A stretch of 64,000 bases of DNA from Clostridiales bacterium (GCA_012840355.1 DULN01000010.1:226683-290682); one strand, 5' to 3'. Positions 34,716 to 58,892 are shown, numbered from the stretch's first letter. The notes: generated by a model from the sequence alone, not told the origin. Translations and numbers: made by a program.

Positions 34716-35165
34716 CTATTTCAGTTGGCGGCTGTCGAGCACGAGCGTCACGGGGCCGTCGTTCTTAATGCTCACCAGCATGTCCGCGCCGAAAATTCCT
34801 TTTGCGACCGGCACGCCCTCGCCTGCGAGCGCGTCGCAAAACTTCTCAAAAAGAGCGTCCGCTTCAGCCGGCGGTGCCGCGCCCATAAAGTCCGGGCGGT
34901 TGCCGTGCACGTAGTTTGCTATAAGCGTGAAGTTCGGCACGACCAGTGCCGAGCCGCCTATGTCTTTTACGGATTTGTTGAGCTTGCCGTTTTCATCGGA
35001 GAAAACGCGAAGCTTTGAAATTTTCGCCGCAAGCTTTTTTGCGTCGGCTTCGGTATCGCCTGCCGCGACGCCGAGCAGCACGACGCAGCCCGCGCCGCAT
35101 TCCCCGACAACTTTGCCGCTAACGGCTACCGACGCTTCGGCGACGCGCTGAAATACCGCTACCAT
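34716..35165 (-). CDS. dtd: D-aminoacyl-tRNA deacylase
   Basis: MVAVFQRV..., PNFTL, GIFGADMLVSIKNDGPVTLVLDS. 149 aa. Confidence 0.9.
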   Translation of the reverse strand: MVAVFQRVAEASVAVSGKVVGECGAGCVVLLGVAAGDTEADAKKLAAKISKLRVFSDENGKLNKSVKDIGGSALVVPNFTLIANYVHGNRPDFMGAAPPAEADALFEKFCDALAGEGVPVAKGIFGADMLVSIKNDGPVTLVLDSRQLK

Positions 35166-36031
35166 GGCTGCTCTTTCTCCTTTCTGCTGCGCATATAAAG
35201 GTATACGCCAATCGACACGGCAGCGACGGCGGCGCCGATGCCGAGGCCGATATAAACCTGTCTGCGGAACACTTTATATGATGCCGCCAAGTCGATGTTC
35301 ACGTTGTTGTTTTTCGCATATTCCGCCGCGTACTCGTTGTCGGACACATCAAGCGTCAGACGCTCGCAAGTCATAAACGCGTCGTGGCCGATTTCTTTGA
35401 CCGACGGGGGGATGTAAAGGTGCTCAAGGCTTATGCACCCCTCAAACGCACGGTCGCCGATAACCTCAAGCGTGTCGGGAAGCTCAACCTTTGTCAGCTG
35501 TTTGCAGTTACGTAGCACGGCTTCCGGCAGCACCATAACCCCGCGCCCGAATTTAATCGAGCGCAGGGAAGGGCAAGCCGAAAACGCCGCGCGACCGATT
35601 TCGGTGACCGAGTCGGGAATGGTTATAGTATAAATGTACGGCTTGCCGAAAAACGCGCCCTCGCTTATGGCGCGGACATTCCCGCCGTCGATAATCGGGG
35701 GGATTTTCACGTTAAAACTGGTGCCGTTGTAACCGACGATGATTATGTCGCCGGTTTCATTACCATCCTCGTCGGTATAAGGCAGATAGAGAATCCCGCT
35801 TTCGGTTTCCTTGACGACGACATCGAAAAACTTGCTGATTTTCGGGATGACCACAGTTTCTGCATCTGTTTCGGCGGGACTCTTTTCGCCGCCTTCTTCG
35901 GATATGCCCCTTCCGGGCAAAACGGTGTCATAATACTGTGCCGGGTCGCCGGGCTTATTAAGCCTCGCTCCGCATGAGGCGAAGGCAAAAGCCAAGGCTA
36001 ATGCTAATATCGCGAGCACAATTTTCTTCAT
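35159..36031 (-). CDS. BspA-type leucine-rich-repeat (LRR_5) lipoprotein with a C-terminal TM anchor
   Basis: Lipoprotein signal MKKIVLAILALALAFAFASCGA. Repeats IPDSVTEIGRAAFSACPSLRSI, LPDTLEVIGDRAFEGCISLEHL, IPPSVKEIGHDAFMTCERL. C-terminal TM VYIGLGIGAAVAAVSIGVYLYM followed by RSRKEKE. Confidence 0.75.
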   Translation of the reverse strand: MKKIVLAILALALAFAFASCGARLNKPGDPAQYYDTVLPGRGISEEGGEKSPAETDAETVVIPKISKFFDVVVKETESGILYLPYTDEDGNETGDIIIVGYNGTSFNVKIPPIIDGGNVRAISEGAFFGKPYIYTITIPDSVTEIGRAAFSACPSLRSIKFGRGVMVLPEAVLRNCKQLTKVELPDTLEVIGDRAFEGCISLEHLYIPPSVKEIGHDAFMTCERLTLDVSDNEYAAEYAKNNNVNIDLAASYKVFRRQVYIGLGIGAAVAAVSIGVYLYMRSRKEKEQPW

Positions 36032-37410
36032 AATTCAATATCCTCAAGCGAAAACGCTTTTTGGGGATTCGCGTTGCCGGGGCTAGTTTCGCGCTCAAAT
36101 TCGGCTTCCGCGGGGATGCCGCCGTCGTATGCGGTCTTCAGCGTCACAACTCCGCTGCCCATTACTTCTTCGAATGTCGCCTTTGGGTTTTGAAGCAGGA
36201 TGTTTAGCACTTGCATATAGTCTCTTATAATCTCGCGCGGCGTTATCATGCTGTCCGCGCCCGCTCGCGCAAGGCAGGTTTTAAGGAACTCTACCTGCTG
36301 CTGCGTCGTTATGCGCGGCTCCCACGAGTGCGCCATGCCGTGAAGTTTCGTGATACGTGCGATAAGCGCCAAAAGCTCGTCGTCGGACAGCCTGCGCAGC
36401 CTTATGACGGGGCCGAGGATGTTTTTGTAGTCGAGGTTAGCAAACCTGCCGTCTGCCAGCCGCGAGCGCAGCGCCTCGTAGCTGAAAAGACCGCGGCGCG
36501 GGTCCTCGAGAAACTGCGGCGTCCCGCCGAGTATAATCGCAAGCCCGGGCGCGCGCCCGCCCAGCGCGTCGTTGAACATCGAGAGCAGCTTTTCGTAGTT
36601 GTTCTCGCGCGCGGTGCGGTTTGAGATTTTATAAAGGTTTACGCACTCATCGACAAATACGGCAAGCCCGCGGTAGCCAATCTTGCGGACAAATACCGCG
36701 AGGAGCTTTATATAGTCATACCAGTTCTCGTCGCCGATTATGTCGCCGACGCCGAGCGCGGCGCGGGCTTCGGTTTTGGTCGTAAACTCGCCGCGCAGCC
36801 AGCGCAGGCAAGCCGAGCGCTTCGCTTCTGACTCATCTGAATCCGAGCTCGAAGCTTCGTAGTAAAGCGTCAGCACCCGCGCGAAATCAAATCCTCCGAC
36901 CTGCCCCTCAAGCTCTCGACCAAGCGAATAGACGCGCGCCTTTAGCTCCACGTCAAACTGCGCGCTGCCTGGCTCAAGCCCCGACGCCGCAAGCTCCGAT
37001 CGCAGCTCGGACAGCCATTTTGAAATGATGATAGTCAGCGCGCCGCCGTCGGGCGCCGCTTTGGAGGCAAGGTTTTTAATAAGCTCGCGGTATGTCGCAA
37101 GTCCCGCCCCCTTGCCGCCGCAGAACCTGCGCTCGGGGGAAAGGTCGCAGTCGGCGGTGACAAAGCCGCGCTCGACCGCATAGCTGCGGATGAGCTGCAT
37201 GAGAAAGCTCTTCCCGCTCCCGTATTTGCCGATTATAAAACGCATCGAGCTGCCGCCCTCGTTTATAAGCTCGAGGTCGCCGAGCAACGCGTCTATTTCT
37301 TCGGCGCGGCCGATTGCAATATATGGCGCGCCGGTGCGGGGCACAACGCCCGCCGCGATTGAGTTTAGCAGGGCATTTAGTATCCTTTTTGGGATTTTTT
37401 GCTCTTCCAT
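36028..37410 (-). CDS. DUF2791 / BrxC-BrxD-type P-loop ATPase (SngB-like)
   Basis: N-terminus ILNALLNSIAAGVVPRTGAPYIAIGRAEEIDALL, Walker A GKYGSGKS (37207..37230), Walker B LAVFVDE. 460 aa. Its stop overlaps the LRR gene start (ATGA). Confidence 0.7.
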   Translation of the reverse strand: MEEQKIPKRILNALLNSIAAGVVPRTGAPYIAIGRAEEIDALLGDLELINEGGSSMRFIIGKYGSGKSFLMQLIRSYAVERGFVTADCDLSPERRFCGGKGAGLATYRELIKNLASKAAPDGGALTIIISKWLSELRSELAASGLEPGSAQFDVELKARVYSLGRELEGQVGGFDFARVLTLYYEASSSDSDESEAKRSACLRWLRGEFTTKTEARAALGVGDIIGDENWYDYIKLLAVFVRKIGYRGLAVFVDECVNLYKISNRTARENNYEKLLSMFNDALGGRAPGLAIILGGTPQFLEDPRRGLFSYEALRSRLADGRFANLDYKNILGPVIRLRRLSDDELLALIARITKLHGMAHSWEPRITTQQQVEFLKTCLARAGADSMITPREIIRDYMQVLNILLQNPKATFEEVMGSGVVTLKTAYDGGIPAEAEFERETSPGNANPQKAFSLEDIEL

Positions 37411-37429
37411 CTAAACACTCCGCCGCGTC

Positions 37430-39379
37430 CTACGCGCGGCCAAAATGCTCGTCAAGTTCAAAGACATAGTCTGGGACAAGCCTCCAGCCTGCTTTTTCGT
37501 CAGGCTCGGCAGCTATGTCGCCGATTATGTCATATGCGTACTCGTTCAGCTTTTCTATTAGTGTGTCGGGCAATATGTTAAGCCGCTCGGCAAGCGCGAT
37601 GAAGCCGCCCGTGTCGCCGTCTCGTAAAAATGCGAAAGCCTGCCGGCAAATATCAAACTCCGAGCCACCCTCTCCGCTAGCCTGCCCGCCGCCGGCAAGG
37701 ATTCTTGTATCCGAAAGCAGCGCTCCATTTAGCTTTTCATTTTCAGCCAAGCTGCTTTCGGGCGGTACGGAAGCCGGCAAATCTTTTGCCGAATCGTTTA
37801 TTTGCTCCGCCGCCGGCTCGTCGAAAGCCTCGATAAGCTTTTTGGTTGTTTCCCATGAGCTTCGCTCAAGCTCAAGCGCGGCTTCAGGCGAGATGCCGTG
37901 CGAGTCCGCCTCATAATAGCGCTCGTACTCCGGCGGCTCTTCGTCTTTTTTCTTGCGGCTTGCGCGGAGCGGCGCGAAATACTCCGCTATATATTTTTTT
38001 GCGGACTCCGGCAGGTTTGGCGTGCCAAACCGCGACTTAATGCCGAGCATCGCGCGGACGTTGTTCTCGGCATATTTTACCATATCGGTGACGATATAGC
38101 GCAGCTCGGGCGATCGCGTGCAGGAAAAATAAACTACCTCAATTTTGCGCTTTATCTCATACGAGCAAAGCGCGCCGGAGTATGCGTCCCGTACCGCGCG
38201 CTGGCGTATCCCATAGCTTTTCAGCGCTGAGCCGAGCAGGTTTAAGCCGTGCGGGCCTTCATTCCCGGTCGCTTCCTCTTGGAGCTTTTTGCAGGCGTAA
38301 AGGAAGGCGCCGCGGATATGCTCCTCGAACAAGTGGCGGTTTTCGTCGGTCATATATTTGCTGTGCCGCCAGTCGTAGCCAGAGTTAAAGCAGAAGAGCG
38401 CCTCGGCGAAAGGCATGTCTGAGCTGTCATTGCAGCCTACGTAAAACTCCTTAAACCTCGCGGCGGCTATGATTTGCGGGTATATCGCTTTCAGCCGCTC
38501 ATACGGAACCGGCAGTTTGTGGATGAGGCAGAGGTCGCATACCCATTCGGAAAGGTACCTGTCGAGCCTTGGGTGCTGCACCCTGTAGCCGAGCCATACG
38601 TCGCAAAGGCGGCTTAGCACCTCGTCCGGGCTTAAGACGTCCGAAAGGTTTATAAGCTCGTAAATATAAAGCATTACATAGCCGAAATCGGTGGGTGGGA
38701 ACTTGCCTTCGCGCACGAGCGAGCGCCAATAAAAGTACCATGCCCTCTGGTCGGCATTTAGCTGGACATACTGCGGCATAAAAGAGAAAAAGGGCGCCGG
38801 CCGGCATTCCTTTGCCGGATAGTCGAGGTATCGGCGCGCGTCGCTTCTAAAACGCTCGTAGAAAGTGTAAGGTGAAGGCCACTCGGATACCCGCACTTCG
38901 AAAATTAGCCTGTTATAGTCGGGCGTGTAGGTGAGATACGGTTGATTTTCGCCTTGCGCTGTGTTGGCGTGTGGGACGGCTTCGCCGCCGTTATCCCATG
39001 GCGAGATTCCCGGCGGGCGGTTGACGGCAGGCTCGCCGCTTTTTTCACCTTCACCCAAGCCGGGCTGGGCGGCACGGGACAAATCCCGCTCGGCGGCGGT
39101 CTCTGGGAACGGCTCAAGATCGCTGCCGCGCACAAGCAGCTTGTCGCGCATAAGCTCTTCAATCGTGGGCTTTTGCGGTTGGCTTTTTGCTTTGCCTTCA
39201 GTCCGGCGGGGGATTTTGGCGCCTTCTTCGGGCTCTTGTGCGTCGCCGTCCAAAATGCGCAAGAGAGCGGTGCCGGTGTCGTGATAGAAGCGGCGCAGCT
39301 TGCGCCTGGGACGCGTGGGCTCAAGGTCCCAAAACTCGTCGGGGCCGAGATCCCGGCCTTTATCGCTCACGTTCGGCAC
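37430..39379 (-). CDS. TerB-N / TerB-C domain protein (SngA-like)
   Basis: PFFSFMPQYVQLNADQRAWYFYWRSLVREGKFPPTDFGYVMLYIYELIN (TerB-N signature) and a C-terminal LIEKLNEYAYDIIGDIAAEP...LVPDYVFEL (TerB-C-like). The N-terminus is disordered for about 150 aa. GTG start with a weak RBS, so the start is uncertain. Confidence 0.7.
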   Translation of the reverse strand: MPNVSDKGRDLGPDEFWDLEPTRPRRKLRRFYHDTGTALLRILDGDAQEPEEGAKIPRRTEGKAKSQPQKPTIEELMRDKLLVRGSDLEPFPETAAERDLSRAAQPGLGEGEKSGEPAVNRPPGISPWDNGGEAVPHANTAQGENQPYLTYTPDYNRLIFEVRVSEWPSPYTFYERFRSDARRYLDYPAKECRPAPFFSFMPQYVQLNADQRAWYFYWRSLVREGKFPPTDFGYVMLYIYELINLSDVLSPDEVLSRLCDVWLGYRVQHPRLDRYLSEWVCDLCLIHKLPVPYERLKAIYPQIIAAARFKEFYVGCNDSSDMPFAEALFCFNSGYDWRHSKYMTDENRHLFEEHIRGAFLYACKKLQEEATGNEGPHGLNLLGSALKSYGIRQRAVRDAYSGALCSYEIKRKIEVVYFSCTRSPELRYIVTDMVKYAENNVRAMLGIKSRFGTPNLPESAKKYIAEYFAPLRASRKKKDEEPPEYERYYEADSHGISPEAALELERSSWETTKKLIEAFDEPAAEQINDSAKDLPASVPPESSLAENEKLNGALLSDTRILAGGGQASGEGGSEFDICRQAFAFLRDGDTGGFIALAERLNILPDTLIEKLNEYAYDIIGDIAAEPDEKAGWRLVPDYVFELDEHFGRA

Positions 39380-39412: not shown

Positions 39413-39441
39413 ATTTTAGCATTATGGCGCGCCCTTGTCAA
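39413..39441 (-). promoter_or_regulatory. Sigma-A-type promoter of the TerB-ATPase-LRR-dtd array
   Basis: Minus strand: TTGACA (39441..39436), 17-nt spacer, TAAAAT (39418..39413). Confidence 0.55.
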
Positions 39442-42314: not shown

Positions 42315-44132
42315 ATGTCCAAAATACTAAAATCCGTCTCGGGCGTACTGAGCGGTGCAGGCAGGGCAGCAAAAGCATATCCCGCTACCGTCCTTTGCGC
42401 CGTGGCGTTTGCCGTCATCAGCCTGCTACAGATACAATTTGACTTGTCAAGATACGAGTTCGTACTAAGCTGCATGAAATGGGCACTGGCGCTTGGCGCG
42501 ATATTCGGCATGGCGGCTGTTGCGGCGCAAGAGTGTTACTTTTCGCAAAAAAACGCGCCGCTCGCCTCCAACCTGCTCGCTCTCGGCGTCGCGGTGATTG
42601 TATATATTGCCCTATACTTAAGTGGCGCCGGCGAAGGCAGGGTCTCCGAAGCGGCCGGTATGCGCGTTTTAGCCGCTATGTTCGTTTCGATTGTAGCCTA
42701 TGTGATGATTGCCGGGCGCCGCTCGGAGGAGACAGACTTTGTTCGCTCGCTGTTTATGGCGCATAAATCGTTTTTCATTGCGTTCATATATGGGCTTGTG
42801 GCGTTGGTAGGCGCAAGCGGGGTCGCGGGCGCGGTACAGGGGCTCATTTACCCTGACATGTCTAGCAAGGTATACGGCTATATAACCACGCTCGCCGGGC
42901 TATTGGCGTTTCTGCTTTTCGTCGGATACTTCCCGCCACTCGGCGCAGGGAAGGCGCCCGAGCGCCGCGAGCAAGCGCAGCGTAAGCCACAGTTTATCGC
43001 CATGCTTCTCTCATATATCCTCATCCCCATAATGCTTGCGCTGACCGTGGTTCTTTTGATTTGGGCGCTGCTGAACGTTTTTGGGATAACAAAATCCGAT
43101 TTCGGCGAGCTTGCGGCTATCGCGGCGGCATATACCATCGGCGGGTTGTGGCTGCACGCGATGACGTCCGACAGCGAGGCTGGAGTGGCGAAGCTTTACC
43201 GAGCCGTCTACCCCGTAGCGGCGATTATAATACTCATCTTCGAAGCGTGGGCAGTAATAAGGCGCCTTTTGCTTTTCGGGCTTAAGACGACGGAGTATGC
43301 ATTCATACTGATTTGGGTTCTTGCGGCGGCAGGCAGCTTGCTGCTTTTAGCGATGCGCGACAGGGATAGGCGCAAGCAGGCGCACCGGGCGATCGCCGCC
43401 GTTGCGTGCGCGCTTGTCGTGGTAGCCGTGCTGCCCGCGGTCGGGTATATCGATCTGCCGGTCGCGGCGCAGGTGGCAAGGCTACAGTCGCTGCTTGAGA
43501 GTGAAGGTATGCTCAAGGACGGCAAGCTCATCCCCGCGGCTGAGATGCCAAGCCCTGCAGCCCGCGCCGCGATAACCGACGCGGTGGACTTTCTCGCATA
43601 CTCGGAAGGGAAGCTGCCCGCGTGGTTTGACAAAGATTTGGCATACGGCGAAGTCTTCCGCGAAAAGATGGGCTTTGACAAGCTTTGGCTCAATGAGGAC
43701 GGCACTCCGTCGGGGGGCGATTTGCCGCACGGGATTTTCCTTTACGCCGAGCCTGAGGCTATAAGAATCGAAGAATTCACTTGGGCGGTTAATTTGACCG
43801 GCAGGCAGGCAGACGTGGTCGTCAAAACAAACCGCGGCGAGTATATAATTTCATGGCAAAATACCGTCGACAAAGGCAGCCCAAGCATAAAGATAACGCT
43901 TGATGGCAATGTTGAAATCGAGCGTTCGCTTGAGGATTTTATAAGCCAGCTTGCGGACAAATACTCGGCAAGCAGCGATAAGGGCACCATAGCCCAAAGC
44001 GAGCTTTTGATCGAGCTTGAGGGGCAAAACATTTATGCCCTGTTGACTCTCTCCGAGGTGTCGATATCCGAATACGAAGGCAAGCGCAGCGTTTGGGTAT
44101 CGCCGTCGATGCTGTATATAAAAGAGAAGTAA
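42315..44132 (+). CDS. Large polytopic membrane protein (DUF4153-like) with a C-terminal soluble domain
   Basis: About 10-12 TM segments in the first 390 aa, then a soluble C-terminal region of about 210 aa. The DUF4153 assignment is from recollection of similar N-termini. RBS GGAGGT. Confidence 0.5.
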   Translation: MSKILKSVSGVLSGAGRAAKAYPATVLCAVAFAVISLLQIQFDLSRYEFVLSCMKWALALGAIFGMAAVAAQECYFSQKNAPLASNLLALGVAVIVYIALYLSGAGEGRVSEAAGMRVLAAMFVSIVAYVMIAGRRSEETDFVRSLFMAHKSFFIAFIYGLVALVGASGVAGAVQGLIYPDMSSKVYGYITTLAGLLAFLLFVGYFPPLGAGKAPERREQAQRKPQFIAMLLSYILIPIMLALTVVLLIWALLNVFGITKSDFGELAAIAAAYTIGGLWLHAMTSDSEAGVAKLYRAVYPVAAIIILIFEAWAVIRRLLLFGLKTTEYAFILIWVLAAAGSLLLLAMRDRDRRKQAHRAIAAVACALVVVAVLPAVGYIDLPVAAQVARLQSLLESEGMLKDGKLIPAAEMPSPAARAAITDAVDFLAYSEGKLPAWFDKDLAYGEVFREKMGFDKLWLNEDGTPSGGDLPHGIFLYAEPEAIRIEEFTWAVNLTGRQADVVVKTNRGEYIISWQNTVDKGSPSIKITLDGNVEIERSLEDFISQLADKYSASSDKGTIAQSELLIELEGQNIYALLTLSEVSISEYEGKRSVWVSPSMLYIKEK

Positions 44133-50738: not shown

Positions 50739-51461
50739 CTAAAACTTGCGGATGAACCGCTCGCAAGCGTCGTAAAGCGCCTGCTCTGGGTCGACGCCAT
50801 GCTTTTTAGCCGACGCGGCAAGCTCAAAAAGCAGCTCCCCGTAAAGCTCGTGCAGCTTTCCTTCGTCTTTGCCCTCGCAGCCCTCGGGCGAATACTTGGG
50901 GCTATACTTGCCGGTTTTCATCGCTTTGCCGGCGAGCTTTGCGGCGCGCATCAGTGCAGGAAGCGCGCGGGATACCCCGTCGAGCTCCTCGCGCAACGTG
51001 GACTGGTCCTTCGTTTGCCGCTTTATGGCGTCCCAATTTTTTATAACCGCCTCAGCAGTCTCGGCGACCGCAGCGCCGTCGCGCACCTCGCCGACCGCCG
51101 ACTCATTTTCGGAGGTTACCCCGAAAACGTGCGGGTGCCGCACGATGAGCTTTCGGCAAATCTCGTCTACCACGTCGGAATAGGAAAACTCGCCCGCCTC
51201 TTCGGCAATGCGCGCGTGAAAGATTACCTGCAGCAAAACGTCGCCAAGCTCCTCGCGCAGCATTGCCGGGTCGCGCTTGTCTATCGCCTCGACCGCTTCG
51301 TATACTTCTTCGATGAAGTTGTTCCTAATGCTTTCGTGCGTTTGCTCGATGTCCCATGGGCAGCCGCCCGGCATGCGGAGGATTGCCATTATCTCGAGCA
51401 AGTCCTCCGTCGTGTAGCGCTCTTTGTCAAGCAGCGCCGCCGCTTTTTCGCTTATGCTCAT
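50739..51461 (-). CDS. mazG: MazG nucleoside triphosphate pyrophosphohydrolase
   Basis: GGCPWDIEQTHESIRNNFIEEVYEAVEAID, ELGDVLLQVIFHA. 4-nt overlap with the tgt stop. Confidence 0.85.
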   Translation of the reverse strand: MSISEKAAALLDKERYTTEDLLEIMAILRMPGGCPWDIEQTHESIRNNFIEEVYEAVEAIDKRDPAMLREELGDVLLQVIFHARIAEEAGEFSYSDVVDEICRKLIVRHPHVFGVTSENESAVGEVRDGAAVAETAEAVIKNWDAIKRQTKDQSTLREELDGVSRALPALMRAAKLAGKAMKTGKYSPKYSPEGCEGKDEGKLHELYGELLFELAASAKKHGVDPEQALYDACERFIRKF

Positions 51462-52594
51462 ACGTCGCTTTCTCCTAGTACCTCTCTATAGTGCCGGTAA
51501 AACCGCTCAAACTCGCCTAAATCGAGCGCCTCGCGGATTTTTTTCATGAGCTCATTGTAAAAGTAAAGGTTATGCATCACGCACAGACGCATCGCGAGCA
51601 TCTCTTTGGCTTTGAAAAGGTGGCGGATATACGCCCGGCTGTAGCGCCGGCAGGCCGGGCAGCCGCATTTCTCGCTGATTGGGCCGGTGTCGTACATATA
51701 CCTTTCGTTTGTAATGTTTAGCTTGCCATCCCAGGTGAAAAGCGTGCCGTGGCGCGCGTTACGGCTGGGCATGACGCAGTCGAAAAAGTCGACGCCGCGG
51801 TACACCGCCTCGAGGATATTGACCGGCGTGCCTACGCCCATAAGGTAGCGCGGCCGGTCGGCTGGCATCAGCGGCTCGACGACCTCGATTATATGATACA
51901 TCACCTCTGCCGGCTCGCCGACCGCAAGCCCGCCTATCGCGTAGCCGTCAAGGTCTAGCTCGGCGATTTTTTTCATATGCTCTGCGCGCAAATCGTCGAA
52001 GGTGCAGCCTTGGTTTATCCCCCATAGCATCTGGTTGGGGTTGACGGTGCCGGGGAGGGAATTAAGCCTCGCCATTTCGGCTTTGCAGCGTACAAGCCAG
52101 CGGTATGTGCGGTCCGCCGCCTCTTTCGCATAGCTGTACTCGGCGGGGTTTTCGACGCATTCGTCAAACGCCATCGCAATCGTCGAGCCGAGGTTCGACT
52201 GTATCCGCATGCTCTCTTCGGGGCCCATAAAAATGGCACGCCCGTCGAGGTGGGAGTTGAAATAAACGCCCTCCTCGCGTATTTTGCGAAGTTTGGCGAG
52301 CGAAAATACCTGAAACCCGCCGCTGTCGGTGAGGATCGGCCCGTCCCAAGAGAAAAACTTATGCAGCCCGCCGAGTTCGCGGACGAGCGCATCGCCCGGA
52401 CGGAGGTGAAGGTGGTATGTGTTTGACAGCACTATTTGGCAGCCAATCTCACGCAGGTCATCCGTCGACACCGCGCCTTTTATGGCGGCGACTGTCGCCA
52501 CGTTCATAAAAACCGGCGTTTCGATTGTGCCGTGTACCGTCTCAAACCTGCCGCGCCTTGCGCGGCCCTCTTGTTTTAGCAGCGTAAAAGACAT
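51458..52594 (-). CDS. tgt: Queuine tRNA-ribosyltransferase
   Basis: GRFETVHGTIETPVFMNV, LTDSGGFQVFS, zinc site CGCPACRRYSRAYIRHL. Confidence 0.9.
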   Translation of the reverse strand: MSFTLLKQEGRARRGRFETVHGTIETPVFMNVATVAAIKGAVSTDDLREIGCQIVLSNTYHLHLRPGDALVRELGGLHKFFSWDGPILTDSGGFQVFSLAKLRKIREEGVYFNSHLDGRAIFMGPEESMRIQSNLGSTIAMAFDECVENPAEYSYAKEAADRTYRWLVRCKAEMARLNSLPGTVNPNQMLWGINQGCTFDDLRAEHMKKIAELDLDGYAIGGLAVGEPAEVMYHIIEVVEPLMPADRPRYLMGVGTPVNILEAVYRGVDFFDCVMPSRNARHGTLFTWDGKLNITNERYMYDTGPISEKCGCPACRRYSRAYIRHLFKAKEMLAMRLCVMHNLYFYNELMKKIREALDLGEFERFYRHYREVLGESDV

Positions 52595-52646
52595 CTTCTA
52601 ACCTTATATCGTCATTATTTAGAAATTTTTGTAGGCGGTATATACA

Positions 52647-54725
52647 TTATGTCCTTAAAAACAGCTTTTCAAGCCAAGCCTTGCTGGCTTCGACCGCGAC
52701 CGGGCGGCCGTGCGGGCAGACACGGACGGCAGGGTCGGTCATCACACGCTGAACCAGCCAAAAGAGCGAAGCCGCACTTCCGTCGTCGCGCCCGGCTTTC
52801 ATTGCGGCTTTGCACGACGCGGTGTAAAGCGCCTGTTCGTAAAGCGCGTCGCGCTCAAGCCTCGGCGTGCCCCCGCCTTCGGCGAGCGCGGCAGCAAGCG
52901 TCGCGAAAAGCTCGCCCGCCGCTTCGGTAGAAAGCCCAGCCGGTATCTGTAAGAGCCCGAGCCTTCCGTCATCAAGCTCGACGTATCCATACCCGAGCGC
53001 GTCAAATTCAGCGGCAAACTCGCCGACCGCCGCGCGCTCCTGCGGCGATAATGCAACCTCGATCGGTATAAACAGCAGTTGCGACTGGGCATCGGCTTGG
53101 CTGTGGAGCCGTTTTTTCATGTCTTCGAACAAGACCCGCTCGTGTGCAGCGTGCTTGTCGATTATATAAAGCCGCTCGCCCGACTCGACGAAGATATAGC
53201 AGTTAAAAAGCACGCCGGCGATCCGGTAATCCTGACCCAAATCAAACTCAATTTTATCATGTGATTCCTCTTGCGGCTGGGCAGGCAGCGACAATTGAGA
53301 CTGCGGCTCGGTTTTCCCGCTGGGCTGCGCAGGCTTTAGCGACTCGGCTGTGTCGATGGAAAAAAGCAGCTCGTCAAGCCGCGGCAGCTTTATAGGTTTG
53401 CTACCGGAGCCTTTAGCCTCATTTGGCTCGATAGAACTCGCAGCGCCGCCTACAATTTCAGCTTGCCCGCGAGAAGGGGATTTCCCCCTTGCGGCTTTGG
53501 ACGTTTTTTGAGTATCCGAAGTTTTTGTCTCTGGCGCGGCGCCCGCAGCCTTCTCATCCGGCTTTTCGCTAGGCGCGCTTTCGCCGGCTGGCTCGCCTTG
53601 CTCGAGGAGGGCGGACGCGGGCGTGGTGTCGCCGTCGCGCTCGTTTTGCTCGAGCTTGCCGCTTATAATTTGGGCCATAGGTCCGAGGTCGTCGCCGGTA
53701 AGCTTGACGCGTGGCTCGCTGAGCTTTGTCAGCGGCAGCCTTGTCATAAGCGCGTTGCGGACAGCGCAGTATACCGCCTCGAACACAGCGCGCTCGTTTG
53801 AAAATTTGACCTCGAGCTTCGTGGGGTGCACGTTCACGTCGACGAGCGTCGGGTGTATTGCGATGTGCAGCACGCAAGCGGGGAACTTGTCGGCGGGTAT
53901 GTACGACTCGAATGCCTGCTCGACAGCGGTGGAAATGGTAAGGCTTTTAATATATCTGCCGTTGACGAAGAAGTTTTCATAGTTGCGGTTGCCGCGCGCG
54001 GCTTCGGGCGTACCGATAAACCCCGTGACGTTTATCCCCTCGGTCATTTCGTCGACCGGCACGAGCCGGCGCGCGAAATCGCGCCCTAGCACCGCGTAGA
54101 TCGCGTCCTCAAGCTTGCCGGTCCCGGCGGTTTCAAATTTTACCGTGCCGTCGGAAATATAGCGTATCGCGATGTCGGGCCTTGAGAGCGCGAGCTTTTC
54201 GACAATCGAGCTTACCGCCAGCGCCTCGCTCGAGTCTTTTTTTAAAAACTTAAGCCTCGCGGGCACGTTCGCGAACAGCTCCTCGACTATAACCGTCGTT
54301 CCGGCGGGCGCGCCGGTGTCGTGTACTTCTACCTCGCCGTCGGGCTCGCTGACAAGCAGCGTGCCTATCTGTTCTTTGCGCGTGCGCGTGATAATCCGCA
54401 CGCGGGCGACGCTCGAGATTGCGGCGAGCGCCTCGCCGCGGAACCCGAGCGTCATAATCGACGCAAGGTCCGAGGCGTCTGATATTTTACTTGTCGCGTG
54501 CCTCTTTAGGGCAACTGGCGCGTCTTCGCGAGCGATGCCGCAGCCGTTGTCGGCGACGCGGATAAAGGTAATGCCGCCCCGCTTGATTTCGACCGTTATT
54601 TGTGTCGCGCCGGCGTCGACAGAGTTTTCAAGAAGTTCCTTTACGACCGACGCCGGGCGCTCGACCACTTCACCGGCGGCTATGAGGTTTGCAACCGATT
54701 GGTCAAGTATGTTTATCTTAGGCAA
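52647..54725 (-). CDS. mutL: DNA mismatch repair protein MutL
   Basis: IAAGEVVERPASVVKELLENSVDAGAT, GFRGEALAAI. C-terminal dimerisation domain with HGRP. Confidence 0.9.
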   Translation of the reverse strand: MPKINILDQSVANLIAAGEVVERPASVVKELLENSVDAGATQITVEIKRGGITFIRVADNGCGIAREDAPVALKRHATSKISDASDLASIMTLGFRGEALAAISSVARVRIITRTRKEQIGTLLVSEPDGEVEVHDTGAPAGTTVIVEELFANVPARLKFLKKDSSEALAVSSIVEKLALSRPDIAIRYISDGTVKFETAGTGKLEDAIYAVLGRDFARRLVPVDEMTEGINVTGFIGTPEAARGNRNYENFFVNGRYIKSLTISTAVEQAFESYIPADKFPACVLHIAIHPTLVDVNVHPTKLEVKFSNERAVFEAVYCAVRNALMTRLPLTKLSEPRVKLTGDDLGPMAQIISGKLEQNERDGDTTPASALLEQGEPAGESAPSEKPDEKAAGAAPETKTSDTQKTSKAARGKSPSRGQAEIVGGAASSIEPNEAKGSGSKPIKLPRLDELLFSIDTAESLKPAQPSGKTEPQSQLSLPAQPQEESHDKIEFDLGQDYRIAGVLFNCYIFVESGERLYIIDKHAAHERVLFEDMKKRLHSQADAQSQLLFIPIEVALSPQERAAVGEFAAEFDALGYGYVELDDGRLGLLQIPAGLSTEAAGELFATLAAALAEGGGTPRLERDALYEQALYTASCKAAMKAGRDDGSAASLFWLVQRVMTDPAVRVCPHGRPVAVEASKAWLEKLFLRT

Positions 54726-54762
54726 TATAACGCACCTCGCGCCGCAAATTTTTTTGCGGCAG

Positions 54763-57366
54763 TTATTCTGCGAGCTTTTTCAGCTCGGAGAGGAGATTCA
54801 GCGCTTCGAGCGGGGTAAGCAGGTCGACGTCGACTTTAAGGAGCCGCTCGCGCACCTCGGCGGCTTTGATATCGTCGATTGTGATAGGCTCGCTTTCGGG
54901 TTTCGGCTCGGGCGGCGGAGCGGCCATTTTCGCGCGCTGTTCAAGCTGCTCGAGTACCTCCCGCGCGCGCCGGATTACCGTTTTCGGCACGCCCGCGAGC
55001 TTCGCTACCTCGATGCCGTAGCTATCATCGGTCGCGCCACGCAGGATTTTGCGCAAAAATATTATGTCGTCGCCCTTCTTTTTTGCGGCGATGTTGCAGT
55101 TGAAGATGCCCTCGACCTGCCCTTCAAGGTCGGTAAGCTCGTGGTAGTGGGTGGCGAATAGAGTTTTTGCGCCTATCTTTTTGCTTGCGGTATACTCGGC
55201 GACGGCACGGGCTATTGACATGCCGTCGAACGTGCTTGTCCCGCGGCCAATCTCGTCGTAGAGTATCAGGCTGCGCTTTGTCGCGTGCGTGAGGATATAG
55301 GCGACCTCGTTCATCTCAAGCATGAAAGTCGAGGTGCCCGAGGCAAGGTCGTCGGACGCGCCAACGCGCGTGAAAATCTTGTCGACGATGCCGATCCTCG
55401 CGCTCGACGCCGGCACAAAGGAGCCAATTTGAGCAAGCAGCACAATCAGCGCGACCTGGCGCATATAAGTGGATTTACCCGCCATGTTCGGGCCGGTTAT
55501 GAGCATAAGCCTGTGATGCCCGCAGTCGAGGTATGTGTCGTTCGGCACGAACGCGCCCTCGGTAAAGCGCTCGACGACGGGATGGCGGCCGTCCTTTATA
55601 TCAATCACGTCGCTGTAGTCGACCTCGGGCCGGCAGTAGCCGTACTCCGAGGCAACTTCGGCGAGGCTGCAGTATACGTCCAGCAGCGCTAGGGTCGCCG
55701 CGACGCGCTGGATACGCGGGGTCTCGGCGGAAACCCGCTCGCGCAGCTGCGAAAATAGCTCCTGCTCAAGCGCGGCGAGCCTGTCCGACGCGCCGAGTAT
55801 CGTCTGCTCGGTTTCTTTAAGCTTTTCGGTAATAAACCGCTCGCCGCCCGCAAGCGTCTGCTTGCGTATGTATCGGCCGGGGATTTGCGAAAGGTTCGAC
55901 TTCGATACCTCTATGTAATAACCGAACACGCGGTTGTAGCCAACTTTCAGGTTCTTTATGCCTGTAGCCTGGCGCTCCTCTTCGGCGATGCGCTCTATGT
56001 AGCTTTTGGCGTCCTTTACAATCTCGCGCAGCCGGTCGGCTTCCTCGCTTGCGCCCGGGCGTATGAAGCCGCCGTCGTGTACCGAAAATGGCGGGTCGTC
56101 GCAAATGGTTTTGTCTATATCCTCGCGCACGTCTGTTAGCTCGTCAAGCGAGTCGCGCAACGAGCAAAGCTCGGGGTCCCGGCAGTCGGCGAGCAGGGAT
56201 TTTATCTCAGGCACGGCTGCAAGCGAGCTTGAGACCGCCTTCATATCGCGCGGGCCCGCTGTTCCGTATACAATTTTCGTCGTGAGCCGCTCAAGGTCGA
56301 GCACTTTCGACAAACACTCGCCGAGCTCTTTGCGAAGGATAAACGATGAGGCAAGCTCGCCGACCGCGCCCTGCCTGCGCTGGATTTTGTTGCAGTCGAG
56401 CAGCGGCGCCTCTATAAACCGCCGCAGCAGCCTTGCGCCCGCTGAAGTCCTCGTGCGGTCGAGCGCCCAAAGCAGCGAGCCTTTGCGTTCGCCGGTGCGC
56501 ATGGTTTCGCATAGCTCAAGGCTGCGGCGGGTGTTGGGGTCGATCTCCATGTACTTGCGCTCATCGTAGACCGAAAGCTCGGTGATGTTGCCGAGCGCCG
56601 AGCGCTGGGTCTCCTCGACGTATCCGAGCAGCGCGCCGACCGCGCGGACCATCGTCAGCTCGCGCTCACTTGGCACGCCGGCGGAGGGGAAGCGGCCCGG
56701 GAACTGCGCTCTGACTCTGTCTAGCGCGGCGCCGCCGTCAAACCGCGAGGGGGCATTGTCGACGACCGCGCAACCAATCCGCTTTGTCAGGTACTCCCTC
56801 AGCTTCGGATACGCCACGATGTCTGTGTCGCAGAGCAGCTCGCGCGGCTGATAGCGCGCGATTTCGGCGAGCACGCGGTCTATTATGTCAGCCCTGTCCC
56901 CCGAATCGAATACTGCCGCCTCGATGTCGCCGGTAGAGATGTCGCAAAAACAAACTCCGGCGGCAGCCGGCGAAAAACAGAGCGCTGCGATGTAGTTGTT
57001 GCGCTTGTCGTCGAGCATGCCGCCGTCTATTATCGTGCCCGGCGTCACGATGCGCACCACTTCGCGGCGCACAAGCCCCTTTGCGGTCGACGGGTCTTCC
57101 ATTTGTTCGCAAATTACGACTTTATAGCCTTTCGCCACGAGCCTAGCTATGTAGCTGTCGGCTGAGTGGTATGGGACGCCGCACATGGGGGCGCGTTCGC
57201 CCTCGCCGCAATCGCGGCCGGTTAGCGTTAGGTCTAGCTCGCGCGACACAAGCTTTGCGTCGTCAAAGAACATCTCGTAAAAGTCGCCGAGCCGATAAAA
57301 GACAATCGCGTCCATGTATTGGCGTTTTATCTCGAGGTATTGCTGCATCATCGGGGTCAGCGGCAT
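54763..57366 (-). CDS. mutS: DNA mismatch repair protein MutS
   Basis: MPLTPMMQQYLEIKRQY, Walker A TGPNMAGKST, DEIGRGTSTFDG. Start set to the ATG at 57366; the track extension covers a GC hairpin. Confidence 0.9.
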   Translation of the reverse strand: MPLTPMMQQYLEIKRQYMDAIVFYRLGDFYEMFFDDAKLVSRELDLTLTGRDCGEGERAPMCGVPYHSADSYIARLVAKGYKVVICEQMEDPSTAKGLVRREVVRIVTPGTIIDGGMLDDKRNNYIAALCFSPAAAGVCFCDISTGDIEAAVFDSGDRADIIDRVLAEIARYQPRELLCDTDIVAYPKLREYLTKRIGCAVVDNAPSRFDGGAALDRVRAQFPGRFPSAGVPSERELTMVRAVGALLGYVEETQRSALGNITELSVYDERKYMEIDPNTRRSLELCETMRTGERKGSLLWALDRTRTSAGARLLRRFIEAPLLDCNKIQRRQGAVGELASSFILRKELGECLSKVLDLERLTTKIVYGTAGPRDMKAVSSSLAAVPEIKSLLADCRDPELCSLRDSLDELTDVREDIDKTICDDPPFSVHDGGFIRPGASEEADRLREIVKDAKSYIERIAEEERQATGIKNLKVGYNRVFGYYIEVSKSNLSQIPGRYIRKQTLAGGERFITEKLKETEQTILGASDRLAALEQELFSQLRERVSAETPRIQRVAATLALLDVYCSLAEVASEYGYCRPEVDYSDVIDIKDGRHPVVERFTEGAFVPNDTYLDCGHHRLMLITGPNMAGKSTYMRQVALIVLLAQIGSFVPASSARIGIVDKIFTRVGASDDLASGTSTFMLEMNEVAYILTHATKRSLILYDEIGRGTSTFDGMSIARAVAEYTASKKIGAKTLFATHYHELTDLEGQVEGIFNCNIAAKKKGDDIIFLRKILRGATDDSYGIEVAKLAGVPKTVIRRAREVLEQLEQRAKMAAPPPEPKPESEPITIDDIKAAEVRERLLKVDVDLLTPLEALNLLSELKKLAE

Positions 57367-57503
57367 AGGCTCTCTTGCTCCAAGTATAAAAGTTTTTTGC
57401 GGGGCGGCATTATGCCGCCCCATAAAGACGTTAAAATCGAATAGTCAAGCTGGCTTTTTCGTTCGCTTAATTTAGCGCTCCAAAAAGCACAGCAGGGAAA
57501 ATA

Positions 57504-58892
57504 TTAGTCTGCGGCAAGCTTGCCCGTCAAGGTATAAACGTCCGCGCCGGTAATCTCGACCCAGGCGAAATTGCCGGTCAGCGCCTCGTATCCGCCTGTA
57601 AAATGCACGAGCTTCGCGTGCTTCGAGCGCCCGCTGTAAACCTCGGGGTTCGTTTTGCTCGGGCCTTCGACGAGCAGCCGCACGCGCTGGCCGATAAAGC
57701 GGCTGTTTTTCGCGATCGATATCGCGTTTTGAACCTCAAGCAGGCGCGCAAACCGCTCGGTTTTTACCTCGTGGGGCGTCGTATCCTCAAGTTCGGCCGC
57801 GGGCGTCCCCTTGCGCGGGGAGTAGATGAACGAGTATATAAAATCAAACTGAGCTTTCTCGACTGCGTCGAGTGTCTCGGCGAAATCCTCCTCGGTCTCG
57901 CCGGGGAAGCCGACGATTATGTCCGACGAGAGCGCGATGTCGGGGATTTTTTTGCGCATGTACTCGACAAGCGAAAGGTAATGCTCGCGGGTGTAGCGAC
58001 GGTTCATGGCGGCGAGGATTTTATTTGAGCCAGCCTGCATCGGGAGGTGGAAGTGGCGCGCGACGTGCTCCGAGCTGGCGATGACGTCGATGAGCTCGTG
58101 CGTAGCGTCTTTCGGGTGGCTGGTCATAAAGCGTATCACATAGTCGCCCGGGATTTTGTCAAGCTCATAAAGAAGTTTTGCAAAGCCGTACTCGTATGAG
58201 TTGACGTTCTGCCCGAGCAGCGTGATGTCCTTGCAGCCGGTCTCGACCAGCTCGCGAGCCTCGGCGAGTATCGCCTCGGGGCGGCGGCTGCGCTCACGCC
58301 CGCGGACATATGGGACTATGCAGTAGGTGCAAAAGTTGTTGCACCCGTACATAATAGGCAGCCAAGCCTTCCAAGTGGTCTCGCGCTTTACCGGCAGGTC
58401 CTCGGAAGGCGTTTCGACATTGTCGTACTCGTCGGGGTAAAACACGCGCTTTTTCGACGTCAGCGCATTATAAAGGATTTCAGGATACCGCTCGGGGGAT
58501 TTTGTGCCGAAAAGGAAATCGACGTATGGGTAGTGCTTTTTGATTTCCTCCATCCGGTGGGGCTGCGCGGTCATGCAGCCGCAGACGCCGACGAGGACTT
58601 CGGGATTTGCTTCTTTAAGGTGCTTTGCGCGCCCGATGAGCGATAGCGCCTTTTTTTCGGCATGTTCGCGCACAGCGCAGGTGTTGTATATGACAAGTGA
58701 CGCGCCGTCGGGCGAGGCGGCGCGCACAAAACCCATCGCTTCGGTCATTCCGGCAAGCCTTTCGCTGTCGGCTTCGTTTTGCTGGCAACCGAAAGTTTCG
58801 ATATAATATGCCGGTCTGCGCGGCATCGACGCGACAATGGCGGCGACCGCCTCCATGTATCGGCGCGCGGATTCGGCGTAACTATTTTGCAT
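57504..58892 (-). CDS. miaB: tRNA-2-methylthio-N6-dimethylallyladenosine synthase
   Basis: YYIETFGCQQNEADSE (UPF0004 domain), radical SAM CNNFCTYC, C-terminal TRAM domain. Confidence 0.9.
   Translation of the reverse strand: MQNSYAESARRYMEAVAAIVASMPRRPAYYIETFGCQQNEADSERLAGMTEAMGFVRAASPDGASLVIYNTCAVREHAEKKALSLIGRAKHLKEANPEVLVGVCGCMTAQPHRMEEIKKHYPYVDFLFGTKSPERYPEILYNALTSKKRVFYPDEYDNVETPSEDLPVKRETTWKAWLPIMYGCNNFCTYCIVPYVRGRERSRRPEAILAEARELVETGCKDITLLGQNVNSYEYGFAKLLYELDKIPGDYVIRFMTSHPKDATHELIDVIASSEHVARHFHLPMQAGSNKILAAMNRRYTREHYLSLVEYMRKKIPDIALSSDIIVGFPGETEEDFAETLDAVEKAQFDFIYSFIYSPRKGTPAAELEDTTPHEVKTERFARLLEVQNAISIAKNSRFIGQRVRLLVEGPSKTNPEVYSGRSKHAKLVHFTGGYEALTGNFAWVEITGADVYTLTGKLAAD

What the first reader, a model, noticed from the sequence alone, without database searches (positions are those of the whole stretch)
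36028..39379. Helicase-less Shango-like core: TerB-N/TerB-C protein plus DUF2791 (BrxC/BrxD-type) ATPase
Seen in the sequence:
- A 649-aa ORF with a ~150-aa low-complexity N-terminus.
- It then carries the block PFFSFMPQYVQLNADQRAWYFYWRSLVREGKFPPTDFGYVMLYIYELIN (about 38651..38791), which I recognise as the TerB-N signature.
- Its C-terminal tail ...LIEKLNEYAYDIIGDIAAEP...LVPDYVFEL resembles TerB-C.
- Nineteen nt downstream lies a 460-aa P-loop protein with the DUF2791-type N-terminus, Walker A GKYGSGKS and Walker B LAVFVDE.

Established knowledge: a TerB-N/C protein, this ATPase family and an SF2 helicase form a conserved triad. It was noted in comparative genomics of Ter-associated systems and later shown to be the anti-phage system Shango (SngA/SngB/SngC).

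The unusual part: I see no helicase-like ORF anywhere in this 64-kb window. The slot after the ATPase is occupied by an LRR lipoprotein gene whose ATG overlaps the ATPase TGA.

Inference: this is either a two-component, helicase-independent derivative of Shango or a non-defence use of the TerB-ATPase module. To my knowledge neither has been characterised.
Basis: partly seen in the sequence, partly recalled or inferred. Interest (0 to 1): 0.8.

Follow-up and report, generated by a model that had tools for sequence, protein, structure and literature searches.

The report
Shango gene pair without its helicase
This gut Clostridia genome carries two of the three genes of the Shango anti-phage system, intact and strongly conserved, but no helicase nearby; the same two-gene form recurs in many related species and is inherited like a housekeeping gene, so the pair probably works without a linked helicase.

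Summary
Window 37430-39379(-) encodes a TerB_N/TerB_C protein that matches PADLOC SngA (3.5e-44). Window 36028-37410(-) encodes a BrxC_BrxD/DUF2791 AAA+ ATPase that matches SngB (1e-163). An LRR_5 surface protein gene overlaps the SngB stop codon. No SngC-like helicase or remnant lies in the 64 kb.

The locus is not a decayed Shango:
- SngB has dN/dS of 0.08-0.10, the same as its housekeeping neighbours.
- All ATPase motifs are intact.
- Of 71 evaluable related species, 29 (41%) also lack an adjacent SngC, in at least 11 separate lineages.
- In 15 species the order is SngA-SngB-AlaS, and SngB distances track AlaS distances (Mantel r = 0.96). This indicates long vertical inheritance.

The LRR gene follows SngB only in the window's own small clade, so it is probably incidental.

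A helicase encoded elsewhere in the genome could not be excluded. Orphan SngC genes exist, but they are rare (5 of 71 SngC loci, against about 42% expected if every helicase-less genome kept one).

Verdict: a new variant of a known kind, namely a vertically inherited, helicase-unlinked SngAB module. Whether it defends against phage or has a cellular role is open.

The parts
39413..39441 (-). Sigma-70-like promoter (TTGACA, 17-nt spacer, TG, TAAAAT; 11 of 12 matches) about 35 nt upstream of SngA
   Evidence: Consensus scan and sequence read. This is a pattern match only. No minus-strand terminator-like site was found between SngA and dtd.
37430..39379 (-). SngA: a soluble TerB_N/TerB_C scaffold protein of 649 aa (probably 646 aa from GTG 39370)
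   Evidence: Pfam TerB_N 6.4e-20 and TerB_C 8.6e-4. PADLOC SngA 3.5e-44. AF2 model with pLDDT 78.8. No segment reaches transmembrane-level hydropathy. dN/dS 0.19.
39323..39340 (-). Conserved N-terminal short motif D-E-F-W-D-L (residues 14-19; P24 is also invariant) within the disordered tail. Candidate docking peptide.
   Evidence: Nearly invariant columns D14, F16, W17 and invariant P24 in the 56-sequence alignment A2. The motif is retained in both helicase-plus and helicase-less loci. The surrounding region has low pLDDT.
38516..38869 (-). TerB_N domain of SngA (residues 171-288). It is part of a confidently folded, mostly helical core spanning residues ~145-520 (nt 37820-38947).
37433..37666 (-). 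C-terminal TerB_C region of SngA (residues 572-649), with helix-helix-helix-strand-strand topology resembling a winged helix
   Evidence: pLDDT 85-97 and the secondary-structure order. The only consistent Foldseek PDB hits are ~75-residue winged-helix domains of MntR, DtxR and LysR regulators (probability up to 0.93, but E > 0.1). Assigning those hits to this region is my inference.
36028..37410 (-). SngB: AAA+ ATPase of the BrxC_BrxD/DUF2791 family, 460 aa
   Evidence: Pfam 3.8e-150. PADLOC SngB 9.9e-164. NCBIfam BrxD at 148 bits, below the 350-bit cut-off, so it is not a BrxD equivalog. The AF2 model matches AAA+ proteins such as HslU, RdrA, ORC subunits, archaeal ORC2, Hda, CED-4 and BrxC (probability 0.77-1.0, low TM-scores). 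dN/dS 0.08-0.10.
37207..37230 (-). Walker A motif GKYGSGKS (SngB residues 61-68)
   Evidence: The motif is invariant across 48 homologues and in both locus classes.
36646..36666 (-). Walker B motif LAVFVDE (SngB residues 249-255), followed by the invariant CVNLYK
35159..36031 (-). BspA-type LRR_5 surface protein of 290 aa, with a lipoprotein-like signal and a C-terminal transmembrane helix. Its ATG overlaps the SngB TGA. It is a lineage-specific neighbour and probably not a system component.
   Evidence: It is found after SngB only in the window clade (window, L003/L009, L010, L069).
34716..35165 (-). dtd (D-aminoacyl-tRNA deacylase). Its start overlaps the LRR stop by 7 nt. It is the first housekeeping gene of the co-directional cluster headed by SngA-SngB, and is listed as context.
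   Evidence: Pfam Tyr_Deacylase 3.6e-52. Junction sequence.

Best explanation
The locus is a functional, chromosomally fixed SngA-SngB module. It is the TerB-N/TerB-C scaffold plus BrxD-family AAA+ ATPase core of Shango, and it is maintained without a linked SngC helicase, most likely without any dedicated SngC in this genome.

Shown by the analyses:
- Both genes are intact and under housekeeping-level purifying selection.
- They sit behind their own promoter-like site at the head of a co-directional housekeeping cluster (LRR, dtd, HemN-like, PRK, PNP).
- The same helicase-less pair recurs in about 41% of related species, in at least 11 lineages.
- In 15 species the pair has been co-inherited vertically with alaS down to 57% AlaS identity.

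Inferred:
- SngA is a soluble sensor or scaffold. It has a disordered tail bearing a conserved docking motif, a large helical core, and a winged-helix-like TerB_C domain that could bind nucleic acid or a partner protein.
- SngB is an oligomerising AAA+ switch that binds SngA and uses ATP to change its state.
- In three-gene Shango, this pair probably recruits or loads the Lhr/Ski2-like helicase SngC, by analogy with the BrxD-BrxHI dyad of type 2 BREX.
- In this genome the pair acts as an ATP-gated sensing or binding module on its own, or through a generic host factor. The helicase is a separable accessory that this lineage has dropped.

Whether the output is phage defence or a cellular surveillance role is not resolved. 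The vertical, slow-evolving, housekeeping-embedded behaviour leans towards a conserved cellular role.
For: Identity.

No SngC in the window.

Purifying selection: dN/dS is 0.077-0.096 for SngB and 0.19 for SngA, against 0.05-0.16 for the neighbours.

Equal constraint with and without an adjacent helicase:
- SngB has 166 columns at least 90% conserved in helicase-less loci and 163 in helicase-plus loci, with Walker A and B kept.
- SngA has 80 and 49 columns at least 85% conserved, respectively.

Recurrence:
- 29 of 71 evaluable species loci lack SngC within +/-10 kb.
- At least 11 state changes are needed on the SngB tree.

Vertical inheritance:
- Mantel r(AlaS, SngB) = 0.96 and r(AlaS, SngA) = 0.90, both p = 2e-4.
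- SngB identity spans 54-94% and AlaS identity 57-94%.

Orphan SngC genes are too rare for a general split-system model:
- 5 of 71 SngC loci are orphans, or 2 of 13 among close relatives.
- About 42% would be expected if every helicase-less genome kept SngC in trans (P = 5e-11 and 0.044).
- This implies that only about 10-25% of helicase-less genomes hold a trans SngC.

Structure.

Loader analogy: PMC12839542.
Against: - Only 64 kb of the genome was available, and orphan SngC genes in housekeeping contexts do exist (L089, L138). A trans helicase here is therefore not excluded.
- The orphan-rate comparison mixes a species-dereplicated genome set with abundance-weighted metagenome contigs. Most of the 71 SngC loci are also more distant (47-53% identity) than the SngB set.
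- The unchanged constraint pattern on SngB is also what a trans-encoded SngC would predict.
- dS is saturated (>1), so the dN/dS values are approximate.
- No experiment shows that SngAB has any activity without SngC. Published Shango tests used the three-gene unit.
- The winged-helix assignment rests on non-significant Foldseek E-values.
Confidence: 0.5

Rival explanations
1. Split Shango. The system still has three components, but SngC is encoded elsewhere in this genome, beyond the 64-kb window, and works in trans with SngA-SngB.
For: - Orphan SngC genes with no SngAB within 5-10 kb exist in related organisms, in housekeeping contexts (L089 next to GlmS and an FkbM methyltransferase; L138 next to ArgRS).
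- Partial separation is seen. SngC lies 1.7 kb downstream with three intervening genes in L006, 2.5 kb downstream in L087, and upstream of SngA in L125.
- SngB keeps the same conserved columns whether or not SngC is adjacent.
Against: - Orphans make up only 7% (5 of 71) to 15% (2 of 13) of SngC loci, against about 42% expected if all helicase-less genomes kept SngC.
- Each orphan is an isolated long branch, not a clade that mirrors the multi-species helicase-less SngB clades.
- No SngC lies within 36 kb downstream or 26 kb upstream in the window.
Confidence: 0.3
2. New triad. The overlapping LRR_5 surface protein has replaced the helicase as the third component, for example as an envelope-side sensor feeding the TerB-type protein.
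For: - The ATG-TGA overlap suggests translational coupling, and it is conserved in L003/L009 and L010.
- LRR dN/dS is 0.14-0.26.
- TerB-family proteins have been proposed to act in membrane surveillance.
Against: - The LRR gene follows SngB only in the window's own clade, where the whole neighbourhood is syntenic. That gives one evolutionary event and no independent recurrence.
- dtd overlaps the LRR gene in the same way, so tight packing is a property of the whole cluster.
- The cytoplasmic tail of the LRR protein is only about 10 residues.
- The LRR protein has no PADLOC hit.
Confidence: 0.07
3. Decayed Shango. The pair is an inactive remnant left after the helicase was deleted.
For: SngC is absent. 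DefenseFinder and PADLOC rules would not call a system here (my own knowledge of those rules).
Against: - Both ORFs are full length with all motifs.
- SngB dN/dS is 0.08-0.10 and its amino-acid identity to relatives (85% and 82%) equals that of the HemN-like gene, dtd and PNP.
- Multi-species helicase-less clades have been retained over a divergence of AlaS down to 57% identity.
Confidence: 0.03

Closest known systems
Shango anti-phage system (SngA/SngB/SngC; Millman et al. 2022, Johnson et al. 2023)
   Same: SngA and SngB are clear family members (PADLOC 3.5e-44 and 9.9e-164). The gene order and tight spacing are the same. Sister species carry full SngA-SngB-SngC triads with SngC at 5.7e-246.
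   Different: There is no SngC at the locus. The pair is chromosomal, embedded in housekeeping operons and vertically inherited at housekeeping rates. Canonical copies lie in defence hotspots and on conjugative plasmids instead. Only the three-gene unit has been tested experimentally.
BrxD-BrxHI dyad of type 2 BREX (Pgl)
   Same: SngB is in the same Pfam family as BrxD (PF10923), and SngC also hits BrxHI (3.4e-124). In BREX the ATPase and helicase form a tightly linked pair, and BrxD has been proposed as a helicase loader (PMC12839542).
   Different: SngB scores far below the BrxD equivalog cut-off (148 vs 350 bits). No PglX, PglZ, PglW or BrxC was found in the window. Here the ATPase is paired with a TerB-N/C protein, and the helicase is the missing part.
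TerB-N/TerB-C + AAA+ ATPase + SF2 helicase gene triad (Anantharaman, Iyer and Aravind 2012, Mol Biosyst 8:3142; paper not held, cited from my own knowledge)
   Same: The two proteins have the same domain architectures.
   Different: That description is of a three-gene neighbourhood. As far as I could find, a stable helicase-less pair has not been described.
Other TerB-containing defence systems (Bunzi BnzA, Dionysus DinB)
   Same: They share the TerB-family theme and a proposed membrane-surveillance role.
   Different: Those proteins carry the TerB domain proper together with transmembrane or pore-forming partners. SngA here has only TerB_N and TerB_C, has no transmembrane segment, and is partnered with an AAA+ ATPase.

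Membership tests
Shango (PADLOC/DefenseFinder definition) | SngA: a protein with TerB_N and TerB_C domains | tested here: met
   PADLOC SngA 3.5e-44 covering profile positions 74-525 of 528. Pfam TerB_N 6.4e-20. TerB_C is sub-threshold at 20 bits against 26.3.
Shango (PADLOC/DefenseFinder definition) | SngB: a DUF2791/BrxC_BrxD P-loop ATPase with intact Walker A and B motifs, adjacent to SngA | tested here: met
   PADLOC SngB 9.9e-164. Pfam 3.8e-150. Motifs located. The gap to SngA is 19 nt.
Shango (PADLOC/DefenseFinder definition) | SngC: an SF2 DEAD/DEAH (Lhr/Ski2-like) helicase in the same gene cluster | tested here: not met
   No tblastn hit at E <= 1e-3. No HMM hit better than E = 2.1 in the whole 64 kb. 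No helicase Pfam family among the window ORFs scanned. Presence elsewhere in the genome could not be tested.
Shango (PADLOC/DefenseFinder definition) | Anti-phage activity | not testable with these tools
   Activity has been shown only for three-gene units from E. coli and P. aeruginosa PA14.
Shango (typical, not defining) | Location in a defence island, hotspot or mobile element | tested here: not met
   The window holds only housekeeping genes. No relatives were found on IMG/VR contigs. The locus is vertically co-inherited with its neighbours.
BREX type 2 (BrxD) | BrxD equivalog score, plus the PglX/PglZ/BrxC/PglW/BrxHI neighbours | tested here: not met
   NCBIfam BREX_BrxD gives 148 bits against a 350-bit cut-off. 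None of the partner genes was found in the window.
Ter (tellurite-resistance) stress cluster | TerB domain proper (PF05099) with TerC/TerD/TerZ neighbours | tested here: not met
   Only TerB_N and TerB_C were detected. No Ter genes appeared among the window ORFs scanned.
AAA+ ATPases, ORC/Cdc6-like clade (as BrxD is classified in PMC12839542) | AAA+ core fold with a helical lid | tested here: inconclusive
   The AF2 model (pLDDT 71) hits HslU, RdrA, ORC subunits, archaeal ORC2, Hda, CED-4 and BrxC with probability 0.77-1.0 but TM-scores of only 0.24-0.30. It is clearly AAA+, but the clade is not resolved.

The most novel reading that the evidence does not exclude
In a large group of gut Clostridia, SngA-SngB is not a mobile defence cassette. 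It is a vertically inherited, near-housekeeping module co-transcribed with essential translation genes (alaS, dtd). Its conserved function is cellular, for example ATP-dependent surveillance of DNA or envelope state. The SngC helicase, and with it classical Shango phage defence, is an optional add-on that has been gained or lost at least 11 times.
Probability: 0.3. Interest if true: 0.75.

Novelty: new variant of a known kind. Interest (0 to 1): 0.55.

Why it matters
- Shango has no known mechanism and has been tested only as a three-gene unit.
- A two-gene form that is natural, recurrent, strongly conserved and vertically inherited points to SngA-SngB as the functional core and to the helicase as separable. 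That gives a direct experimental handle: compare SngAB with and without SngC from sister species at 60-70% identity.
- Defence-annotation tools that require all three genes will miss about 40% of the family in this abundant gut lineage.
- A 'defence' family evolving in step with AlaS raises the possibility of a non-defence, core cellular role.

Tried and rejected
1. A different helicase in the 'slot'. The ORFs of about 870-985 aa right after SngB in most (about two-thirds) of the helicase-less loci looked like candidate alternative helicases. They are AlaS or LacZ, with an FtsK gene ~1.3 kb downstream in L022.
2. A divergent SngC-type helicase nearby. The SngC HMM found none in any of the 31 helicase-less loci. 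That HMM also misses DinG-type helicases, so for the window I relied on Pfam as well.
3. A recurring replacement partner. Clustering all neighbouring ORFs found no family shared across the helicase-less lineages. The exceptions were AlaS (15 loci) and DUF6873 (10 loci), which look like conserved gene order.
4. A genome-resolved search for SngC in trans. This was not possible. I considered spending the last protein search to match 'longest contig' lengths, but the estimated chance of success was a few percent, so I did not.
6. The original TerB-N/TerB-C paper (PMC4104200) is not held.
7. A prophage or viral origin. No relatives were found in IMG/VR.

Full report
**1. Observation**

The reported ORFs exist as described.

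- *SngA*, window 37430-39379(-). It has a Pfam TerB_N domain (E = 6.4e-20) and a sub-threshold TerB_C match (E = 8.6e-4). It matches the PADLOC SngA model almost to its end (3.5e-44).
- *SngB*, window 36028-37410(-), starting 19 nt downstream of SngA. It is a full-length BrxC_BrxD/DUF2791 ATPase (3.8e-150). It scores far better against PADLOC SngB (9.9e-164) than BrxD (4.6e-44) and fails the NCBIfam BrxD equivalog cut-off. The quoted motifs and coordinates were verified.
- *LRR gene*, window 35159-36031(-). Its ATG overlaps the SngB TGA. It encodes a BspA-type LRR_5 protein with a lipoprotein-like signal and a C-terminal transmembrane helix.
- *dtd* overlaps the LRR stop in turn. A HemN-like radical-SAM gene, PRK and PNP follow on the same strand.
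- A strong sigma-70-like promoter match lies just upstream of SngA. No terminator-like site on that strand separates SngA from dtd.

**2. No helicase in the window**

I first verified an SngC probe. The helicase in the related locus L006 scores 5.7e-246 against PADLOC SngC.

- tblastn of that protein against the window found nothing at E <= 1e-3.
- An HMM of 36 SngC sequences, run unfiltered on all stop-to-stop ORFs of at least 50 aa, gave a best E of 2.1.
- Pfam scans of 26 window ORFs showed only housekeeping functions and no helicase family: MutS, MutL, RadA/Sms, TGT, a MiaB-like enzyme, a release factor, PFK, pyruvate kinase, homoserine dehydrogenase and others.
- One large ORF (42315-44132, 605 aa) was not scanned here, and its L003 orthologue has no Pfam hit on record.
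- The window also shows no integrase or defence gene.

**3. Relatives**

SngB has thousands of homologues, almost all in uncultured Clostridia/Oscillospiraceae-type MAGs.

A scan of species-representative genomes returned 80 loci at 55-87% identity.

| Class of species locus | Count |
|---|---|
| SngC directly after SngB (usually 12-670 bp away) | 42 |
| At least 3 kb of downstream DNA, no SngC within +/-10 kb | 29 |
| Contig too short to judge | 9 |

The script counted 43 and 31 because it also included the window, L003, L006 and L007.

- On an SngB tree the helicase-less loci fall in many separate places, including several multi-species clades. At least 11 state changes are required.
- The window's own clade (window, L003/L009, L010, L069) shares the full SngA-SngB-LRR-dtd synteny.
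- The LRR gene occurs after SngB nowhere else.

**4. What sits after SngB in the other helicase-less loci**

- AlaS follows SngB in 15 loci (start 4-274 bp after the SngB stop, most within 116 bp, so probably co-transcribed).
- LacZ follows in four loci and DUF2079 in one. In L022, an FtsK gene lies ~1.3 kb downstream, after two small ORFs.
- No neighbour family is shared across the helicase-less lineages apart from conserved gene order.
- Helicase-plus loci are also in housekeeping contexts, with a DinG-like helicase, LysRS/AsnRS and an aspartate aminotransferase downstream.

**5. Not decay, and old**

- Within the window clade, dN/dS is 0.08-0.10 for SngB, 0.19 for SngA and 0.14-0.26 for LRR. 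Housekeeping neighbours give 0.05-0.16. dS is saturated, so these are approximate.
- SngB has the same number of strongly conserved columns in helicase-less and helicase-plus loci (166 vs 163), including Walker A and B.
- SngA keeps all its conserved blocks.
- Across the 15 SngA-SngB-AlaS loci, SngB distances track AlaS distances with Mantel r = 0.96 (p = 2e-4). The identity ranges are nearly equal: 54-94% for SngB and 57-94% for AlaS.
- Helicase-plus loci show the same vertical behaviour with their neighbours (r = 0.87-0.92).
- No relative was found on viral contigs.
- By contrast, more distant family members (<60% identity) are on 696 plasmids, mostly conjugative. Full triads sit beside relaxase or transposase genes on a Clostridium plasmid.

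**6. Is SngC elsewhere in the genome?**

This could not be tested directly, so I ran the reverse test. An SngC-anchored scan of metagenome contigs gave 71 evaluable loci.

- 66 have SngB nearby, and 5 are orphans.
- Among the 13 closest relatives, 2 are orphans.
- If every helicase-less genome kept SngC in trans, about 42% orphans would be expected. The shortfall has P = 5e-11 for 5 of 71 and P = 0.044 for 2 of 13.
- The implied share of helicase-less genomes with a trans SngC is about 10-25%.
- The orphans are real and sit in housekeeping contexts (L089, L138). Each is an isolated long branch on the SngC tree.
- The comparison mixes two differently sampled collections, so it is suggestive rather than decisive.

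**7. Anatomy and mechanism**

*SngA* (AF2 model, pLDDT 78.8):
- A disordered tail of about 140 residues contains one conserved short motif, DxFWD...P.
- A confident, mostly helical core spans residues 145-520 and includes TerB_N.
- A disordered linker follows.
- The C-terminal domain of about 78 residues has helix-helix-helix-strand-strand topology.
- Foldseek found no significant PDB match. The only consistent local hits are winged-helix DNA-binding domains, with E > 0.1.
- Neither SngA nor SngB has a transmembrane-like segment.

*SngB* models as an AAA+ ATPase with a large helical insertion. It matches HslU, RdrA, ORC subunits, archaeal ORC2, Hda, CED-4 and BrxC.

The literature classifies BrxD as ORC/Cdc6-like and proposes that it loads BrxHI (PMC12839542). 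SngC groups with BrxHI in helicase phylogenies (PMC12278908).

My inference is that SngA-SngB forms an ATP-gated sensor-scaffold, and that in triads it recruits or loads SngC. In this genome the pair acts alone or through a host factor.

**8. Comparison and novelty**

- Shango was validated only as a three-gene cassette. Protection was modest and the mechanism is unknown.
- I found no report of a two-gene form.
- The locus meets the SngA and SngB criteria and fails the SngC criterion. It should therefore not be filed as a complete Shango.
- I classify it as a new variant of a known kind: a vertically inherited, helicase-unlinked SngAB module.

| Reading | Probability |
|---|---|
| Functional pair without a dedicated helicase | 0.5 |
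| Split system with SngC in trans | 0.3 |
| LRR as a new third component | 0.07 |
| Decayed remnant | 0.03 |

The remaining probability is unassigned.

Interest is 0.55. This is a solid and somewhat surprising comparative result that makes the role of the Shango helicase directly testable. However, incomplete or split defence loci are common, and the key whole-genome check is still missing.

Noticed in passing
L011, L013, L014, L031, L038, L040, L046, L049-L052, L055, L056, L059, L075 (AlaS immediately after SngB); window 34716-35165 (dtd); L034 16776-18254 (LysRS/AsnRS); L138 13551-15275 (ArgRS beside orphan SngC); L006 from 20501 (ThrRS): Aminoacyl-tRNA synthetase and tRNA-proofreading genes recur next to SngAB(C) loci in several lineages. 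A rough expectation of about 14% per independent +/-10 kb context suggests this may be chance or conserved gene order. AlaS starting 4-116 bp after SngB implies that the pair is co-transcribed with an essential gene.
   Followed up: partly
L013 679-1362; L046 7584-8300 and the equivalent position in L050-L052, L055, L056, L059, L062, L075: A DUF6873 gene (Pfam 1.1e-63) sits immediately upstream of SngA in 10 helicase-less loci from two SngB clades. Whether it is a partner or just conserved gene order is unknown.
   Followed up: partly
window 39323-39340 (SngA residues 14-19): A nearly invariant short motif D-x-F-W-D, with invariant P24, is isolated in the otherwise disordered and poorly conserved N-terminal tail of SngA. 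It looks like a docking peptide for an unknown partner.
   Followed up: partly
L089 7641-10118; L138 9941-12487; also L102, L153, L158: Orphan SngC helicases with no SngA or SngB within 4-10 kb upstream, sitting among housekeeping genes (GlmS, an FkbM methyltransferase, MBOAT/AlgX, ArgRS). They may be the trans partners of helicase-less SngAB loci, or stand-alone helicases.
   Followed up: partly
window 10149-11525 (-): A RadA/Sms-type protein (zinc ribbon, KaiC/RecA-like ATPase and Lon_C domains). It is the only DnaB/RecA-fold DNA motor in the window. It is a standard repair gene and is unrelated to SngC.
   Followed up: no
window 51458-58892 (-): A housekeeping block: TGT (51458-52594), MutL (52647-54725), MutS (54763-57423) and a MiaB-like methylthiotransferase (57504-58892). 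It confirms that the whole window is core chromosome.
   Followed up: no
window 7062-8288 (+), 11582-12820 (-), 42315-44132 (+): Three sizeable ORFs (408, 412 and 605 aa) without a Pfam match: the first two had no hit at E <= 1e-4, and the 605-aa one has no hit on record in its L003 orthologue. The 605-aa one looks like a polytopic membrane protein and is conserved in L003.
   Followed up: no
L034 14217-16694 and equivalents in 11 helicase-plus loci: A DinG/XPD-type helicase (DEAD_2 and Helicase_C_2 domains) lies about 2.4 kb downstream of SngB (directly after SngC) in one helicase-plus clade. The SngC HMM does not detect it, which shows that the HMM is specific to SngC/Lhr-type helicases.
   Followed up: partly
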